20,000 nucleotides of DNA from an uncultured virus (IMG/VR IMGVR_UViG_3300011339_000567) (Duplodnaviria; Heunggongvirae; Uroviricota; Caudoviricetes), in IMG/VR virus record IMGVR_UViG_3300011339_000567. One strand, written 5' to 3'. A program made the position numbers and the translations under genes. Below the pieces are notes generated by a model. It was not told the origin of the DNA. It did no database searches and was given only the letters and a program-made list of their open reading frames with translations. Below are positions 3-18,919 of the stretch, in pieces (the first letter of the stretch is position 1; the number at the start of each line of letters is the position of its first letter).

Positions 3-95
3 TGCGGCATCTCGTTCACATGCGAGGCCGCATTCGAACGCTGGCTGGAGCGCAACATGACTCCCGTGCAGTTGGGTCTTTTCGGGTCACAGTGA
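3..95 (+). CDS. 3' end of a hypothetical protein running in from the window edge; ends ...TPVQLGLFGSQ
   Basis: Own translation of frame 3: open from the window edge to TGA at 93-95. Confidence 0.55.
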   Translation, partial: CGISFTCEAAFERWLERNMTPVQLGLFGSQ

Positions 96-99
96 CCCG
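83..99. promoter_or_regulatory. 17-bp palindrome CGGGTCAC-A-GTGACCCG, candidate operator (copy 1)
   Basis: Perfect 8-bp arms; second copy at 1274-1290. Confidence 0.5.
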
Positions 100-110
100 C
101 AGACAACAAG

Positions 111-198
111 GTGCGATAAGACTCGGTACGGATTTGAGATAAGACTCGTACAAAATTGAGATAAGACTAAGTGTCCAGACCGTCCCTTCTTATCGCAC
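111..198. repeat. Iteron-like repeats GATAAGACT x3 plus one inverted partial copy
   Basis: GATAAGACT at 115, 138 and 160 (22-23 bp period); GTGCGATAAG 111-120 is inverted as CTTATCGCAC 189-198. Confidence 0.7.
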
Positions 199-457
199 TT
201 TGTGCTAAGCACCCAGTACAGCCGCAACCCGCATGGATGCTGGGTTCTTGGGGGTAAGTGTCCGCGCCCTCTATCTAAATCTTTATATATAATATATATT
301 AGAGAGTGTGTATATGCGTGTGCTCGGGCTTTTGTTTTTACTTAAAGGCTTTGGCTATGGCTAGTTGTCTGTTGGATAGTGAGCTGGACACTTTTTCAAG
401 AAACCTAGCATTCATGCGGCCTGCGAGGTGTCCAGACGCTTAGCACAACATGCGATA
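191..457 (+). other. Long imperfect inverted repeat around an AT-rich core; candidate replication origin or structured single-stranded element
   Basis: 191-210 pairs with 438-457 (18/20); 223-250 with 397-425; 256-263 with 386-393; TA-rich core at about 275-302. Confidence 0.55.
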
Positions 458-497
458 CAATTCCCACTCTGTCCAAAACTCGGTATGAAAAGGAGAT

Positions 498-1256
498 ATG
501 ACTATGGATTTCCCCAAATCCTACCTGCGAATGAGCGAACGCACCCTACGCAAACACCTTGCAAAACGCAAACTTCCCTTGGGCTACGCTGAAAACCTCA
601 TATCTCAGGTGATGTCCGAGAGGCACAAGAAGTTCGCGCATCTCGCCCGAGATACGCAACACGCCCGATTGTGGGGCGACCTCATAGCCCCTGCCAAGGC
701 CGAACGCCGCATCGTGCAGAGGATGTTGAGTTTAGATTTAGCCAATAACAGCCCCGAACGCACCCTTGCACTGGAGGCTTATCTCATGGTGCTTGACGCC
801 ATCATCGGGCGGCTCACGCTCAAGGCCAACACAGCAGAAGCAACGCCGAGGCAAGTGGCCGAGGAGACAAATGTCCCCAACAAAGGCGAGCACTGGGTGG
901 ACTGGATGCCGCCCAAGAAGATAGCGCTCATCAAGGAGTACTTCGCCCAGATACCCTACATCAAGGGCGTGAGGCAGAAGACCCCGTTCGAGCGCCGGTG
1001 GCCCACGACACAACACGCCATACACAAGAAGCGCCTGATTGAGCGCACCGACAAGGAGCTTGCCATCCTTGAGCGCCGCATGGCCGTGGAGCTTGCCGAT
1101 GCTAAGTTGACCGACACGCACATCTTCAAACAGCAGGAGATCAACGACATGCGTATCCAGATCAGCAAGATGCAAGCGGCCATGCACACCATCAAACTAC
1201 TGCGCCCGACTGACCTCGTGCCGGTGACATGGCACGGCATCGACCTGCCGGACTGA
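498..1256 (+). CDS. Hypothetical phage protein, 252 aa, basic and helical
   Basis: Long ORF with AAGGAG just upstream; the start may be the second Met at 504; no family recognised. Confidence 0.85.
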   Translation: MTMDFPKSYLRMSERTLRKHLAKRKLPLGYAENLISQVMSERHKKFAHLARDTQHARLWGDLIAPAKAERRIVQRMLSLDLANNSPERTLALEAYLMVLDAIIGRLTLKANTAEATPRQVAEETNVPNKGEHWVDWMPPKKIALIKEYFAQIPYIKGVRQKTPFERRWPTTQHAIHKKRLIERTDKELAILERRMAVELADAKLTDTHIFKQQEINDMRIQISKMQAAMHTIKLLRPTDLVPVTWHGIDLPD

Positions 1257-1296: not shown

Positions 1297-1339
1297 ATCG
1301 GTTAGCGGTCTGCCGTCTCAGACCGCATTTTAAGGAGAA
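1297..1339 (+). promoter_or_regulatory. Conserved leader hairpin, copy 1: GCGGTCTG-CCGTCT-CAGACCGC plus RBS
   Basis: 8-bp stem at 1305-1326; homologous copies at 2460 and 5089. Confidence 0.7.
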
Positions 1340-1343
1340 AGCA

Positions 1344-2018
1344 ATGAAAACCACACTGAACAAAATCCGGGCGCAGCACCCTTGCGAAGACGGCTGGAAG
1401 AAGCTGCTTGCTTATTTAGGTAAGACCAAGCCAGACGACGAGCCGCTAGCCATCGTAACTATTCTTGACAGTAACGGACTGGATGACGCGCTCTGGTGCC
1501 TGCGGGCAGTCGAGGGTTACGATAAAGAAATGCGCTTGTTCGCGGTGCGGTGCGCCCGACGTGTACAGTACTTAATGACTGACCCGCGCAGCATCGCAGG
1601 GGTAGACGTTGCCGAACGCTTCGCAAACGGTGAAGCCACTACGGAGGAGTTGACTGCGGCGGGGGATGCCGCGTGGGCTGCGGCGTGGGCTGCGGCGGGG
1701 GATGCTGCGTTGGCTGCTGCGTGGGCTGCTGCGAGGGTTGCGGCGGGGGCTGCTGCGAGGGTTGCGGCGGGGGCTGCTGCGAGGGATGCTGCGAGGGTTG
1801 CCGCGTGGGCTGCGGCGTGGGCTGCGGCGGGGGATGCTGCGTTGGCTGCTGCGTGGGCTGCTGCGAGGGTTGCGGCGGGGGCTGCTGCGAGGGATGCTGC
1901 GTGGGCTGCTGCGTGGGCTGCTGCGAGGGTTGCTGCGAGGGCTGCTGCGAGGGCTTCTGCGTTGGCTGTACAAGAAGCAGACTTGCGTCAAATGTGTAAC
2001 AAAGGAGAAGTGAAATGA
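1344..2018 (+). CDS. Phage protein with Imm-5-like helical region and Ala-rich 4-residue repeats
   Basis: RBS AAGGAG; RLFAVRCARRV...DPRS...AERFANGEAT.EEL followed by AA(W/R/G)(A/D/V) repeats, a pattern I recognise from phage proteins. Confidence 0.8.
   Translation: MKTTLNKIRAQHPCEDGWKKLLAYLGKTKPDDEPLAIVTILDSNGLDDALWCLRAVEGYDKEMRLFAVRCARRVQYLMTDPRSIAGVDVAERFANGEATTEELTAAGDAAWAAAWAAAGDAALAAAWAAARVAAGAAARVAAGAAARDAARVAAWAAAWAAAGDAALAAAWAAARVAAGAAARDAAWAAAWAAARVAARAAARASALAVQEADLRQMCNKGEVK
1655..1968 (+). repeat. 12-bp-period coding tandem repeat with an exact 95-bp internal duplication
   Basis: Unit GCN GCG NGG GNT; 1667-1761 is identical to 1799-1893. Confidence 0.9.
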
Positions 2019-2230
2019 CAGCAATGCACTTAGACCACGACATGCGGCTACAAGCCGCCCGATGTATGGAGCGTGAGGGAGGCAGTTTCGCAGGGCATAT
2101 CGCCCGAGCGTACTATGTGGCCGACACGCAGAACGCAGAGGCACTACTGACTGCGTTCGATATGTTGTTCCTCAAGTTCTACGCGGAGCACTGCCGCAAT
2201 GAGCGCATGAAAGAAAGGGAAACGCAATGA
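2015..2230 (+). CDS. Hypothetical phage protein (GGSF...A...AD..N motif)
   Basis: ATGA coupling with the upstream gene; RBS AAGGAG. Confidence 0.8.
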   Translation: MTAMHLDHDMRLQAARCMEREGGSFAGHIARAYYVADTQNAEALLTAFDMLFLKFYAEHCRNERMKERETQ

Positions 2231-2433
2231 CCATGCTAAGCCTACCAAAACAAATCGAGGCAGCACGCCTACTCACGCTGCGCCAGATGCTCAAGCTAGA
2301 GATGAAGGGGATGCACAGGAGCAGAGGCCACACGGCATACAACACGCTCAAACAGATGGGGTTCAAAGGCACTCGTGAGCAGGTGCTCGCACAGATGGAT
2401 GAGATTCGCAATGAACTCATAGGTAAGGAGTAG
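2227..2433 (+). CDS. Hypothetical protein, 68 aa
   Basis: ATGA overlap; purine-rich RBS. Confidence 0.75.
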   Translation: MTMLSLPKQIEAARLLTLRQMLKLEMKGMHRSRGHTAYNTLKQMGFKGTREQVLAQMDEIRNELIGKE

Positions 2434-2435
2434 AC

Positions 2436-2484
2436 GGGGACATTTGTCCCCAACAGTATGAGGGTGCTGTCTCACCCTCGCTTT
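2436..2484 (+). promoter_or_regulatory. Palindrome GGGGACA-TT-TGTCCCC plus conserved leader hairpin copy 2: GAGGGTG-CTGTCT-CACCCTC
   Basis: Palindrome at 2436-2451; hairpin at 2460-2479; intergenic. Confidence 0.65.
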
Positions 2485-2511
2485 CAGTAAGTAAAACATC
2501 AAGGAGTTTTT

Positions 2512-3969
2512 ATGTTCTTAGGATATTCCCCCAAGGCCAAGTGCTTTATGTACGCCGCCGATGTTGTGCGCTACTCGCGCCAGTGGCATCAGAGTTTGCA
2601 AAACAGATTCGAACTGCACCCCGCAGTGGCCGATGCGTTCCAGATGCACGACCCAGAGGACTGGCAACAGTTACTGCTTGAGTGGCCGCATGTGGCAACG
2701 ACCGATGCGACCCGCTTGGCCTATACCCGTGACGAGCGAGCAGGCGAGGCCGACAGGCAGACGCTGACATCATTGGGCAAGTACCTGAAGCAGCACTGGC
2801 CGAACCTAGCAGACCATCACATCAGGGATTATGTGGCCAAGTACGCTACAGCGGCTAGCTTTCACATTGAGCGCACCACCGAGGCCATCGTCAACGCAGT
2901 GCAGAAAGGCCCTGCCTCGTGTATGAAGTTCAACGAGGACGATGAGGACGAGCGGAGCCAGCTTGATGATCTCGGTGCTCACCCTTACGAGGTGTACGAC
3001 CCGCAGTATGGCTGGCATGTGGCAACGCGCCGCTTGGGTCATCAGATCGTAGGTCGTGCGCTACTCATGCAACGGGACAATGCCGAGAGCAACCCCAAGT
3101 ACTTCGTGCGTACCTACAAGCACCAGGACGGCGAGCGTTACTCACAGCCCGATGACGAGCTGCATCAGTGGCTACATTCGCAGGGGTACGAGAAGCGCAA
3201 CGAATGGAAGGGCGAGCGTCTGGCGTACATCCCTAGCGGGCGGTACAACAGCGACTTCATCGCCCCGTACATCGACGGCGGTGCTCAGGAGGTAGATGTC
3301 GAGCGCGAGCGCACAGATGATGGCACATACAAGCAGTACTTACGCATCACGCGCAGTGGTGAGTGGGAGTGCTGCAACCAAAACGGCACTGCGACTGAGC
3401 AGGGCGCATGCAGTTGTGCGGACTGCGGCGAGCGCATCAGTGAGGACGAGCAGTGCGGCATAGGGGTGTATGGAGATCACATCGTTGGTGAGTGCTGCAT
3501 CGATGAGTACACACATGTCACTGGGCGCAGGGGCAACGACTACTATGTGCCCAACGATGAGGCCGTGGAGGTTGATGGCACTTACTACGACCGCGACTAC
3601 CTCAGTGACAACAACATCGTGGAGCTTGCGAACGGCGACTACTGCTCGATGGACGATGCGGTCTATGTTGACGATGAGTGGTATCACACCGATGACGATG
3701 CGATTGTGTGCGATTACACTGGCGGCTACCAAATGCGCGATGACTGCGTAGAACTGCATGACGGCGAGTGGGCGCTGCTTGACGAGACATGGGAGTGCCA
3801 AGGGTCGGGCAACTTCTACTTGTACGATGACGATGCACCTGTCGAGATTGACGGCAACATGTACCACGAGGACTATGTACCCGAGCCAGAAGAAGTCGAG
3901 CCATGCCCCGTACGGGATGTGTGCCTGTCCATTGAACCAACCACAGTAACAATCAAGGAATCAACATGA
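2512..3969 (+). CDS. 485-aa phage protein: central SCM...GRALL...PYIDG domain, Cys cluster and acidic ~15-aa C-terminal repeats
   Basis: RBS AAGGAG; long ORF; CSCADC...ECC; repeats such as DEAVEVDGTYY, DDAVYVDDEWY and DAPVEIDGNMY. Confidence 0.85.
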   Translation: MFLGYSPKAKCFMYAADVVRYSRQWHQSLQNRFELHPAVADAFQMHDPEDWQQLLLEWPHVATTDATRLAYTRDERAGEADRQTLTSLGKYLKQHWPNLADHHIRDYVAKYATAASFHIERTTEAIVNAVQKGPASCMKFNEDDEDERSQLDDLGAHPYEVYDPQYGWHVATRRLGHQIVGRALLMQRDNAESNPKYFVRTYKHQDGERYSQPDDELHQWLHSQGYEKRNEWKGERLAYIPSGRYNSDFIAPYIDGGAQEVDVERERTDDGTYKQYLRITRSGEWECCNQNGTATEQGACSCADCGERISEDEQCGIGVYGDHIVGECCIDEYTHVTGRRGNDYYVPNDEAVEVDGTYYDRDYLSDNNIVELANGDYCSMDDAVYVDDEWYHTDDDAIVCDYTGGYQMRDDCVELHDGEWALLDETWECQGSGNFYLYDDDAPVEIDGNMYHEDYVPEPEEVEPCPVRDVCLSIEPTTVTIKEST

Positions 3970-5072
3970 ACAAGAAATCAATACTCTGCAAGACGCTATC
4001 ACGCGCCCTGTCAATGAAGCGGCCACATGGCACACGCGCAGTCATCGAGTTCACGGACTGGCTGCACTCAAACCTACCCAAGCGCAAGCACATCGCTGTC
4101 AGCTATGACAAGGTGGGCAACCTGCATGTGGACGCACGACTTGACGACACCAACCGCACGCTATTCGTAGCCCATGTGGACACAGTGCATCGTGAGACAG
4201 GTGCTAACAAGATCAGGAAGACTCAAGGCAAGTGGTACGCCGATGGTGCGCCCCTTGGCGCAGATGATGGGGCTGGATGCGCGATCCTTATGCACATGCT
4301 GCATGCTGGTGTACCGGCGTACTACATCTTCACGCAGGGCGAGGAGCGCGGGGGTATCGGTGCTAAGTACCTTGCCGACCACAGCCCCGAGTTGTTGGCC
4401 TGCTTTGATCGTGCCATTGCGTTCGACAGGCGCGGCATCGACAGCGTTATCACGCATCAGGGGTGGGGCAGGTGCTGCTCTGATGAGTTCGCTGACGCAC
4501 TGTCCGGTGAGCTGTGTGCTGACGGCGTGCTGATGTATCTGGGCGATGACACAGGTGTGTACACCGACACTGCCGAGTTCGTTGACATCATCCCCGAGTG
4601 CACCAACATCAGCGTGGGCTACGACAACGAGCACTCAGACCGCGAGACTCTGGACATCTTCCACTTCACGGCGCTGGCTGCTGCGGCCGTCAAGATCAAG
4701 TGGGATGCCCTGCCCGTGGGGCGTGACCCGACAGTCATCGAGAAGCTGCCCCTGACTGACTGGCGCAGTTACTACAGCACGACAAGCCTGACCTCATGGG
4801 ACGGCAAGTGGTCTGACGCCAGCGCCTACGGGTACACGGACAACGACATGCTGGAGGACGCACTGCGCGATGCCATGCGTGGGATGTATCACGACCTGCT
4901 CGACATGATCGCAGAGGCAGCGTATCCAGAAGACCCCATGATGGCGCTCAAGTTCCTCAACAAGCGCATGCTCACTGACGAGGTGTTGCAGCGTGCGATG
5001 TCTGACTGCGCTGTCTACGATGCCGATACTGTGTTGCTGTCCCTGTTCGACACAGTTCACTGCGAAGTCTGA
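3966..5072 (+). CDS. Zn-dependent exopeptidase, M20/M28 clan
   Basis: Metal-ligand motifs AHVDTVH, LGADDGAG, GEERGGIG, AFDR, YTDT and GYDNEH. Confidence 0.88.
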   Translation: MNKKSILCKTLSRALSMKRPHGTRAVIEFTDWLHSNLPKRKHIAVSYDKVGNLHVDARLDDTNRTLFVAHVDTVHRETGANKIRKTQGKWYADGAPLGADDGAGCAILMHMLHAGVPAYYIFTQGEERGGIGAKYLADHSPELLACFDRAIAFDRRGIDSVITHQGWGRCCSDEFADALSGELCADGVLMYLGDDTGVYTDTAEFVDIIPECTNISVGYDNEHSDRETLDIFHFTALAAAAVKIKWDALPVGRDPTVIEKLPLTDWRSYYSTTSLTSWDGKWSDASAYGYTDNDMLEDALRDAMRGMYHDLLDMIAEAAYPEDPMMALKFLNKRMLTDEVLQRAMSDCAVYDADTVLLSLFDTVHCEV

Positions 5073-5080
5073 CGGGTGTC

Positions 5081-5124
5081 ATCGGTTTGCAGCCTGCCGT
5101 CTCAGGCTGCGCTTTAAGGAGAAG
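5081..5124 (+). promoter_or_regulatory. Conserved leader hairpin, copy 3: GCAGCCTG-CCGTCT-CAGGCTGC plus RBS
   Basis: 8-bp stem at 5089-5110; same ATCGGTT 5' flank and TTTAAGGAGAA 3' flank as copy 1. Confidence 0.7.
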
Positions 5125-5128
5125 ACGA

Positions 5129-5299
5129 ATGATCAAGATAACCATATCCAAGAGCGTGATTCAAAACCACATAAATGACCTACTCCACCAAGTTCAGTCA
5201 CTTATGAAAGGAAAAACTCTGGACAACCGTGAACTAAATGACATGCAAGAACTACTCTGGCGCGTCGAGCACTACATCAACCAAGGAGAAGACAAATGA
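5129..5299 (+). CDS. Hypothetical protein, 56 aa (MIKITISK...)
   Basis: ATG at 5129 after AAGGAG; start moved from the track's 5087. Confidence 0.75.
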   Translation: MIKITISKSVIQNHINDLLHQVQSLMKGKTLDNRELNDMQELLWRVEHYINQGEDK

Positions 5300-7186: not shown

Positions 7187-7320
7187 AAAAAAGCCTACAC
7201 CTGAAGACTGAGTTCTTGCCGCGCAAGTGGCCCTGCTTTGCCATTGGGTTTTTTAGCAGTGGTGACGAGTTCATAGTGCACCTGTACCTTGTGTGTTTCC
7301 GTATTCGATGGGGGTATTGA
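7183..7320 (+). CDS. Hypothetical protein, 45 aa (MKKSLHLK...)
   Basis: GGAG RBS and ATGA overlap; start moved from the track's 7078. Confidence 0.65.
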   Translation: MKKSLHLKTEFLPRKWPCFAIGFFSSGDEFIVHLYLVCFRIRWGY

Positions 7321-18485: not shown

Positions 18486-18764
18486 ATGGCTTACTCACAA
18501 AAAACAATCGACATGGTTATGCGTGCGCCGAAGACTCCGGGCAATCAGCTCGGACGTTGGGCTGTTCACCACGACTTCTCTGTCGTTCGCATCTCCAAGG
18601 CGCTGGGCGTTACACGCCAGACCGCATACAACTGGTTCGCAGGTGGAGACATCTTCCCTGCGTACGAGCACCGCGTAGAAACGCTGCTCAAGTTCCTTCA
18701 AAATTCACGCTCTGCCGATGAGGCATGGAAAAAAATATGTCATCACTACAACCTTCAAGCCTGA
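18486..18764 (+). CDS. Cro/XRE-like helix-turn-helix regulator, 92 aa
   Basis: SVVRISKALGVTRQTAYNWFAG HTH; ATG 18486 preferred over GTG 18429. Confidence 0.85.
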   Translation: MAYSQKTIDMVMRAPKTPGNQLGRWAVHHDFSVVRISKALGVTRQTAYNWFAGGDIFPAYEHRVETLLKFLQNSRSADEAWKKICHHYNLQA

Positions 18765-18919
18765 GCAACCGCGAGTTGATCTTGCACTGCGACAACATCT
18801 GGACAGCAGAGGGCTTCCCGCTCGACATTCAGTTTGAGTTGTATGCCCGTTTTTGCCGCCTCGCCGTTATCAACGAATACCCCGTCCGCGACGAAAAGCA
18901 ACTCGACCTGTTCGCGTAA
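18737..18919 (+). CDS. 60-aa protein ending in QLDLFA (beta-clamp-binding-like motif)
   Basis: ORF between the HTH gene and the primase; start at 18737 or 18725. Confidence 0.72.
   Translation: MSSLQPSSLSNRELILHCDNIWTAEGFPLDIQFELYARFCRLAVINEYPVRDEKQLDLFA

What the first reader, a model, noticed from the sequence alone, without database searches (positions are those of the whole stretch)
1297..5124. Three leader hairpins with one conserved cap (TG-CYGTCT-CA) on different, covarying stems
Seen: the intergenic gaps before ORFs 1344, 2512 and 5129 each hold a hairpin: GCGGTCTG-CCGTCT-CAGACCGC (1305-1326), GAGGGTG-CTGTCT-CACCCTC (2460-2479) and GCAGCCTG-CCGTCT-CAGGCTGC (5089-5110). Stem bases change while pairing is fully kept, and the loop and two closing pairs are conserved. 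Copies 1 and 3 also share a 5' ATCGGTT and a 3' TTTAAGGAGAA; copies 2 and 3 are both followed by GCTTT. I saw no copy inside a gene. Inference: a loop-specific protein-recognition element co-regulating early genes, for example a boxB/nut-like antitermination site, a translational or processing signal, or an N4-style hairpin promoter. I do not recognise the motif.
Basis: partly seen in the sequence, partly recalled or inferred. Interest (0 to 1): 0.78.

Follow-up and report, generated by a model that had tools for sequence, protein, structure and literature searches.

The report
Small pseudoknot before phage early genes
The three hairpins are real, but each is half of a tiny knotted RNA fold that sits just before the ribosome-binding site of early genes in a group of uncultured phages; it probably shields those messages from decay or helps ribosomes load, and its job is untested.

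Summary
Observation confirmed; interpretation incomplete. The 'conserved loop' pairs with a triplet just upstream of the stem, giving a ~28-nt H-type pseudoknot (P1 3 bp, P2 8 bp). In scans that left both triplets free, 104 of 108 full-stem matches paired 3/3, with all four Watson-Crick types at the outer pair; window copy 2 adds a CAG/CTG change. It lies on the sense strand, 16-25 nt before the start codon (149 of 160), before unrelated early genes, in phage groups with different capsid families. Relatives lacking it often carry a different 10-12 bp pseudoknot at the same place: 61 of 697 early leaders against 0-2 in shuffles and 2 of 642 middle leaders. No Rfam match; no phage RNA polymerase recognised. 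Best reading (0.4): a constitutive coaxial roadblock to RNase E scanning that stabilises each cistron; rivals are S1/30S recruitment (0.25) and a protein operator (0.15). No expression data. The scan has noted similar pseudoknot leaders on other phage DNA (e1-6225226 may be this motif; sequence look-ups found none).

The parts
1299..1326 (+). Pseudoknot copy 1: P1a 1299-1301, L1 1302-1304, P2a 1305-1312, P1b 1313-1315, L3 1316-1318, P2b 1319-1326; SD 1333-1337; start 1344
   Evidence: (52.5 bits)
2453..2479 (+). Pseudoknot copy 2, compensated variant: (A)CAG 2453/2454-2456 pairs with loop CTG(T) 2467-2469/2470; P2 2460-2466 with 2473-2479; SD 2502-2506; start 2512
   Evidence: 28.3 bits; same variant in L001, L002, L004, L005, L007
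5083..5110 (+). Pseudoknot copy 3: P1a 5083-5085, L1 5086-5088, P2a 5089-5096, P1b 5097-5099, L3 5100-5102, P2b 5103-5110; SD 5117-5121; start 5129
   Evidence: 50.3 bits
1274..1290 (.). 'Element A' palindrome (17 bp) followed by T6, 8 nt before copy 1; member of a separate repeat family, terminator-like here
2436..2451 (.). 'Element A' palindrome (16 bp) directly before copy 2
83..99 (.). 'Element A' palindrome with no pseudoknot beside it
1344..2018 (+). Gene behind copy 1: 224 aa, phrog_18326 (unknown function), Ala-rich repeats
2512..3969 (+). Gene behind copy 2: 485 aa conserved early protein, no Pfam or PHROG family; its leader is the commonest site of the element in relatives
3966..5072 (+). 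M28/M20-like peptidase gene (phrog_4191), used to fetch relatives; ends 10 nt before copy 3
5129..5299 (+). Gene behind copy 3: 56 aa, unknown; 60% identical homologue in the other phage group (G006)

Best explanation
A constitutive H-type RNA pseudoknot of about 11 coaxial base pairs at the 5' side of early cistrons. SHOWN: fold by covariation, sense-strand orientation, position just 5' of an SD, restriction to early leaders, interchangeability with other pseudoknots of like size. INFERRED: the early polycistronic RNA made by host polymerase is cut in the A/U-rich single strand upstream; the pseudoknot, unlike a plain hairpin, interrupts the single-stranded path along which RNase E scans from the new 5' monophosphate, so the cistron behind it lasts longer and makes more protein. 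The invariant bases at the helix junction would then serve to hold a 3-bp helix in place (base triples), not as a protein-reading code.
For: P1 covariation with both triplets free: 104 of 108 full-stem matches, 0 of 28 broken-stem matches; 84 of 86 unique cores collected without requiring P1. P2: 6 of 8 pairs with double changes, 100% of cells paired. Sequence-distinct pseudoknots at the orthologous leader (4+7 bp form, 3 pairs with double changes in 10 distinct rows) and 22 non-type-I among 61 of 697 early leaders against 0, 0, 2 in shuffles: size and topology are kept, sequence is not. PMC9943677 reports that H-type pseudoknots impede RNase E scanning in proportion to coaxial length, that composition matters little and that orthogonal hairpins do not. 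A-rich 5' flank (A at -2 in 143 of 163). Downstream genes are unrelated (over 100 distinct N-termini listed). T4 gene 32 precedent: RNase E cut at -71, pseudoknot at -67, unusually stable mRNA (PMC3014915).
Against: No transcript data at all. In PMC9943677 the 11-bp VPK pseudoknot is only a 'modest' impediment. Seven positions are invariant in the 84-row alignment, more than a composition-blind obstacle needs. Distance to the start codon is tighter (IQR 19-23) than distance from the upstream stop (IQR 10-34), which fits a ribosome-related role at least as well. The host is unknown, so RNase E dependence is assumed. Many relatives have only a palindrome or nothing at that leader, and 9 of 25 genome records had no type I match.
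Confidence: 0.4

Rival explanations
1. Translation enhancer: the pseudoknot plus the A/U-rich spacer docks ribosomal protein S1 and the 30S subunit just 5' of the SD, speeding initiation on internal early cistrons.
For: P2 ends 16-25 nt before the start in 149 of 160; the spacer is about 69% A+U. PMC7708055 shows an H-type pseudoknot needed for S1/30S binding and notes the diversity of S1-binding pseudoknots. Explains interchangeable pseudoknots equally well. Not exclusive with the best explanation.
Against: The SDs are strong (AGGAG in 93 of 157) and fairly open in a nested-fold model (median unpaired probability 0.63), whereas tisB standby overcomes a sequestered site 100 nt away. Tight spacing may only reflect compact intergenic regions.
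Confidence: 0.25
2. Operator for a phage or host RNA-binding protein that switches early genes off together (gene 32 / RegA style), reading the invariant junction.
For: Invariant junction bases in type I; confinement to early leaders; A/U-rich spacer up to the SD as in gene 32.
Against: Different pseudoknots replace it in relatives. No early-region protein is shared by G002 and G006 at E<=1e-3. Two small proteins outside that region are shared: an 82-aa protein that is missing from the part of G010 fetched, and an HTH protein whose place in G013 was not fetched.
Confidence: 0.15
3. Transcription-level element: put- or nut-like antiterminator acting on host RNA polymerase, or a DNA hairpin promoter of N4 type.
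For: Terminator-like palindrome plus T6 at 1274-1296; often two stems in tandem (palindrome within 13 nt of P1 in 105 of 157); sigma70-type promoters read by eye in G006.
Against: The element lies after, not before, the terminator-like site; the first stem is absent in 52 of 157 and the linker runs 1-13 nt, unlike the fixed 73-nt V of putRNA (PMC9378689). G-U tolerance is on the mRNA strand only. No polymerase family or motif in the large virion proteins.
Confidence: 0.08
4. Ligand-sensing or self-processing RNA: the invariant junction is a pocket, as in small pseudoknot riboswitches, or a catalytic core.
For: Invariant bases cluster at the P1/P2 junction and in both loops; same topology class as guanidine-III and SAM-II (recalled).
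Against: No Rfam match; only about 28 nt; SD lies outside the fold; loop-SD pairing fails (12 of 16 ACU loops face GGAGA); downstream genes share no pathway.
Confidence: 0.07

Closest known systems
T4/T2/RB69 gene 32 leader pseudoknot (PMC3014915, passages read)
   Same: H-type pseudoknot with coaxial stems in a phage mRNA leader, A/U-rich single strand between it and the SD, RNase E site just 5' of it, stable mRNA
   Different: Gene 32 has one copy, 67 nt from the start, bound by its own product; this one has up to 4 type I copies per locus, ends about 21 nt from the start, precedes unrelated genes, and has a 3-bp P1
Pseudoknot obstacles to RNase E scanning (BWYV, VPK, hTR, SARS-CoV-2 inserts; PMC9943677, parts 1-3 of 5 read)
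   Same: H-type, 11 coaxial pairs like VPK, placed in a 5' UTR ahead of the ribosome-binding site
   Different: Those are foreign pseudoknots inserted into an E. coli reporter; this is a natural, ligand-free, repeated phage element whose effect is untested
tisB +42 mRNA 5' pseudoknot (PMC7708055, abstract and discussion read)
   Same: Compact H-type pseudoknot in a bacterial leader with nearby single strand; candidate S1/30S dock
   Different: tisB acts about 100 nt from a sequestered RBS; here the SD is close, strong and mostly open
HK022 putRNA (PMC9378689, passages read)
   Same: Protein-free structured RNA in a phage early transcript; two stems are often seen in tandem here
   Different: put is a 73-nt two-stem V with a triplex that binds the beta-prime zinc-binding domain; here the first stem is optional, the linker varies and the element is per-gene
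T4-type promoter-early stem-loop (PeSL) cassettes (recalled, not read)
   Same: Repeated leader modules before small early genes in a region where genes are swapped
   Different: PeSL carry a sigma70 promoter and a plain stem-loop; no promoter was seen before the three window copies

Membership tests
H-type pseudoknot | Hairpin loop pairs with a flanking strand; order P1a-L1-P2a-P1b-L3-P2b | tested here: met
   104 of 108 with both triplets free; 84 of 86; five P1 types in 158 unique contexts
H-type pseudoknot | Fold forms in solution with coaxial stacking | not testable with these tools
   The folding tools give nested structures only; P1 stacking is -4.2 to -6.6 kcal/mol for the 3-bp forms, so tertiary contacts are probably needed (inference)
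Any Rfam 15 family (riboswitches, ribozymes, curated motifs) | Score at or above a family's gathering threshold | tested here: not met
   Window: 3 weak matches, none on the element; 7 loci: 0 at gathering; 20 member loci: 6 matches, all below threshold
Gene 32-type autoregulatory operator | Single copy before the gene of its own binding protein | tested here: not met
   Several copies per genome before unrelated genes
Gene 32-type autoregulatory operator | Protein binding represses translation | not testable with these tools
   Needs binding and reporter assays
N4-type hairpin promoter | Phage-encoded single-subunit virion RNA polymerase (feature recalled) | tested here: inconclusive
   PF00940 found in 0 of 5 near-complete relatives, but the control rang nowhere; three large virion proteins show LPD38 or unknown families and no polymerase motif
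N4-type hairpin promoter | DNA hairpin with 3-nt purine loop on the template strand (feature recalled) | tested here: not met
   6-nt loop; wobble pairs only on the mRNA strand
Lambdoid nut boxB | Purine-rich GNRA-like loop left free for an N protein (feature recalled) | tested here: not met
   Loop is pyrimidine-rich and half of it is paired
HK022 put | Two obligatory stems, fixed junction, about 70 nt | tested here: not met
   Upstream stem absent in 52 of 157; linker 1-13 nt; put features
RNase E scanning obstacle (works-like) | Coaxial pairing in the scanning path 5' of the protected region | tested here: met
   11 coaxial pairs in types I and II, upstream of the SD
RNase E scanning obstacle (works-like) | Protects downstream sites in 5'-monophosphorylated RNA | not testable with these tools
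   No RNA holder was listed; needs a reporter

The most novel reading that the evidence does not exclude
These phages use a natural, ligand-free class of one-helical-turn pseudoknots as per-cistron roadblocks against host RNase E (or as S1 docks), and have built them repeatedly out of a repeated palindrome: one extra complementary stretch downstream turns the palindrome into a pseudoknot (11 of 138 palindrome copies, all 11 before an SD; swap control mean 1.66, max 7). This would be a general phage strategy for tuning early mRNA lifetime and a minimal 28-nt portable mRNA stabiliser.
Probability: 0.3. Interest if true: 0.8.

Novelty: new variant of a known kind. Interest (0 to 1): 0.58.

Why it matters
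Pseudoknots are known to block RNase E scanning mainly from engineered reporters, and phage leader pseudoknots mainly from T4 gene 32. Here is a natural family with many copies, ready-made compensatory variants and interchangeable forms, in uncultured phages whose capsid is related to the abundant HTVC023P-type group (62.6% identity for relative G002). It makes directly testable, in E. coli, whether phages time early gene expression by structural protection of each cistron, and it could serve as a very small expression part.

Tried and rejected
Rfam: no match. Literature: 'pseudoknot + put RNA + HK022' 0 papers; motif strings gave 35 papers, and the 15 listed were unrelated by title; topic searches listed no description of this motif. 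Fremin et al. 2023 (PMC10690425) mined IMG/VR intergenic regions; four of its six listed supplement files were searched without a hit, two zip files could not be read and three files, including the largest archive, are too large, so the hairpin may be among its 8,495 candidates. RNA data: no RNA holder was listed; no reads laid. Bacterial genomes: 25 pattern matches, 2 with model E<1e-5; L358 lacks an SD and L363 has one A-C mismatch: no host clue. Cultured relatives: model found 0 of 5; blastn of copy 1 hit only SD-level words; the structure-only scan gave 4 candidates in 5 genomes, one neat 3+8 bp case in DSL-LC04, near chance level. Loop-SD pairing rejected (weak association p=0.04, from one clade by eye). 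A fourth P1 pair is not conserved (A-U in 71 of 157). tRNA-like/RNase P reading rejected: the 3' flank is mostly ACU, not RCCA (feature recalled). Likeness to the Neisseria uptake sequence and to the type I-F CRISPR repeat was noted from memory and dropped: the pairing differs. The window's own genome is not held. P1 counts on alignment A1 are circular because rows were chosen for P1.
Full report
Setting. The window is the early and replication region of an uncultured phage: small unknown genes, an M28-like peptidase, then family A DNA polymerase, exonuclease, helicase and HNH genes, all on +. Its own genome is not held. The peptidase fetched 80 IMG/VR loci at 46-99% identity. The capsid protein of relative G002 is 62.6% identical to that of pelagiphage HTVC023P and 70% to Pag-Yong1; the host is unknown.

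Observation. The 10-base cap occurs 3 times against 0.15 expected, and 0 of 200 shuffles reached 3. In the 80 loci plus the window, this cap was the commonest on perfect stems of 6 bp or more: 29 hairpins in 15 sequences. Six of the 67 had one G-U on the mRNA strand and none had five pairs plus a mismatch, which points to RNA on the sense strand.

The CGG three bases before the stem is complementary to the first three loop bases. Window copy 2 changes both sides (CAG with CTG). Two scans left both triplets free. Of 136 matches, not de-duplicated, 108 had a complete stem and 104 of these paired 3/3: CGG/CCG 90, GGG/CCC 10, TGG/CCA 3, AGG/CCT 1. The four exceptions lacked an SD, and none of the 28 broken-stem matches paired 3/3. 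Of 86 unique cores collected without requiring this pairing, 84 had it. The element is therefore an H-type pseudoknot: P1 3 bp, L1 3 nt, P2 8 bp, no L2, L3 3 nt. P2 shows double changes at 6 of 8 pairs with all cells paired. The invariant bases cluster at the helix junction. Related sequences share changes, so these are counts of sequences, not events; at least four separate double changes are needed for the five P1 types.

Where it sits. A covariance model gave 57 matches at E<1e-4 in the window and 26 of the 80 loci, all on the strand of the early genes. It matched 16 of 25 genome records, with copies clustered in the early region, for example four within 20,674-24,877 of the 61-kb G002. It also occurs in G006 and G010, whose early genes differ and whose capsid (G006) belongs to another family; the gene behind window copy 3 has a 60% identical homologue in G006, so gene exchange is a plausible route (inference). 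Of 165 unique contexts, 157 had an SD and start by pattern; of the other 8, three had a GAGG SD the pattern missed, two were cut by contig ends, and L066, L164 and L358 had none. P2 ends 16-25 nt before the start in 149 of 160 (median 21), whereas the distance from the upstream stop is broad (IQR 10-34). The downstream genes are unrelated.

Interchangeable forms. At the leader of the 485-aa gene, relatives that lack this form often carry another pseudoknot with a 4-bp P1 and 7-bp P2, again 11 pairs, with compensatory changes in both helices. It aligns by eye with the first form through a one-base register shift. Further sequence-distinct forms of 10-12 bp appear in L013, L019, L021, L023, L024 and L063. 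A structure-only scan found pseudoknots in 61 of 697 early leaders (22 not of the first type), against 0, 0 and 2 in three shuffles, 2 of 642 middle leaders and 2 of 217 opposite-strand leaders. Many relatives have only a palindrome or nothing at that leader.

The palindrome. The inverted repeats at 83-99, 1274-1290 and 2436-2451 belong to a separate family, repeated several times per early region, usually of one length within a genome, and present in G013, which lacks the first pseudoknot type. Its mismatches include A-C, C-C and A-G as well as G-U, so it may be a DNA site; this is unresolved. One lies within 13 nt of P1 in 105 of 157 contexts. In 11 of 138 copies a downstream complement of 6-7 bases turns it into the second pseudoknot form; all 11 precede an SD, and swapping downstream flanks gave a mean of 1.66, at most 7.

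Mechanism. Shown: fold, strand, position, early restriction, replaceability. Inferred: function. Size and topology are kept while sequence is not, and the genes share no pathway, which argues for a generic structural role. PMC9943677 (parts 1-3 of 5 read) shows that H-type pseudoknots, but not plain hairpins, impede RNase E scanning in proportion to coaxial length and largely regardless of composition; an 11-bp pseudoknot was a modest obstacle. T4 gene 32 mRNA has an RNase E cut four bases before its leader pseudoknot and is unusually stable (PMC3014915, passages). I give the roadblock model 0.4. The S1/30S enhancer model (PMC7708055, abstract and discussion) gets 0.25: it explains the spacing better, but the SDs are already strong and fairly open. 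A protein operator gets 0.15: the invariant core favours it, the replacements and the lack of a shared early protein do not. Transcription-level readings get 0.08 (PMC9378689, passages), ligand or catalytic readings 0.07.

Known or new. No Rfam family matches, and the paper searches listed no description. The alignments of PMC10690425 (passages read) could not be searched, so prior listing as an unannotated candidate is open. Earlier notes of this scan describe other pseudoknot leaders before phage early genes; e1-6225226 could be this motif, but three sequence or place look-ups found no look-alike. I class it as a new variant of a known kind: an uncatalogued leader pseudoknot family with strong structural support and no functional data (no RNA holder listed). 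The bioRxiv paper 10.1101/2019.12.14.876532 was read in passages for the phage group only.

Noticed in passing
window 83-99, 1274-1290, 2436-2451; G002 18209-21862; L016 4834-8504; L349 7692-11442: Repeated 15-19 bp palindromes, homogenised within each genome and different between genomes, intergenic in the early region: candidate operators, terminators or recombination anchors. A small HTH gene (window 18486-18764) is a possible binder.
   Followed up: partly
window 110-500: Short direct repeats (GATAAGACTC at 115 and 138), an AT-rich core near 280-300 and a long imperfect inverted repeat around it; a similar arrangement is seen by eye in G002 and G006. Looks like a replication origin next to ORF 498.
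   Followed up: no
G002 18701-18815 (L335): After a palindrome, a longer structured leader that begins like the pseudoknot and contains a 9-bp hairpin; no Rfam match at gathering.
   Followed up: no
L339 about 16610-16540, minus strand (G006): Three tandem hairpins in the leader of a 116-aa early gene.
   Followed up: no
L339 18140-18110, minus strand (G006): After the paralogue of the gene that precedes the pseudoknot, a 9-bp hairpin takes the same intercistronic position; possibly another pseudoknot.
   Followed up: no
window 1660-1970: ORF 1344 carries imperfect Ala-rich tandem repeats.
   Followed up: no
L363 1498-1531, minus strand: Near-perfect copy with one A-C mismatch, before an SD and a 101-aa ORF in a Nevskia MAG contig with non-phage neighbours; real or chance is undecided.
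   Followed up: partly
OR003939.1 (phage DSL-LC04), leader of a 63-aa gene starting near 7252, minus strand: A 3+8 bp H-type pseudoknot candidate of unrelated sequence in a cultured relative; a possible test system if real.
   Followed up: partly
L337 564-9629, minus strand (G002): 3021-aa virion protein with an LPD38 domain and an HExxH motif; no solved relative.
   Followed up: partly
L001-L008, leader after the peptidase gene: Close relatives keep the pseudoknot but carry different genes behind it, which suggests the leader marks a gene-swap boundary.
   Followed up: no
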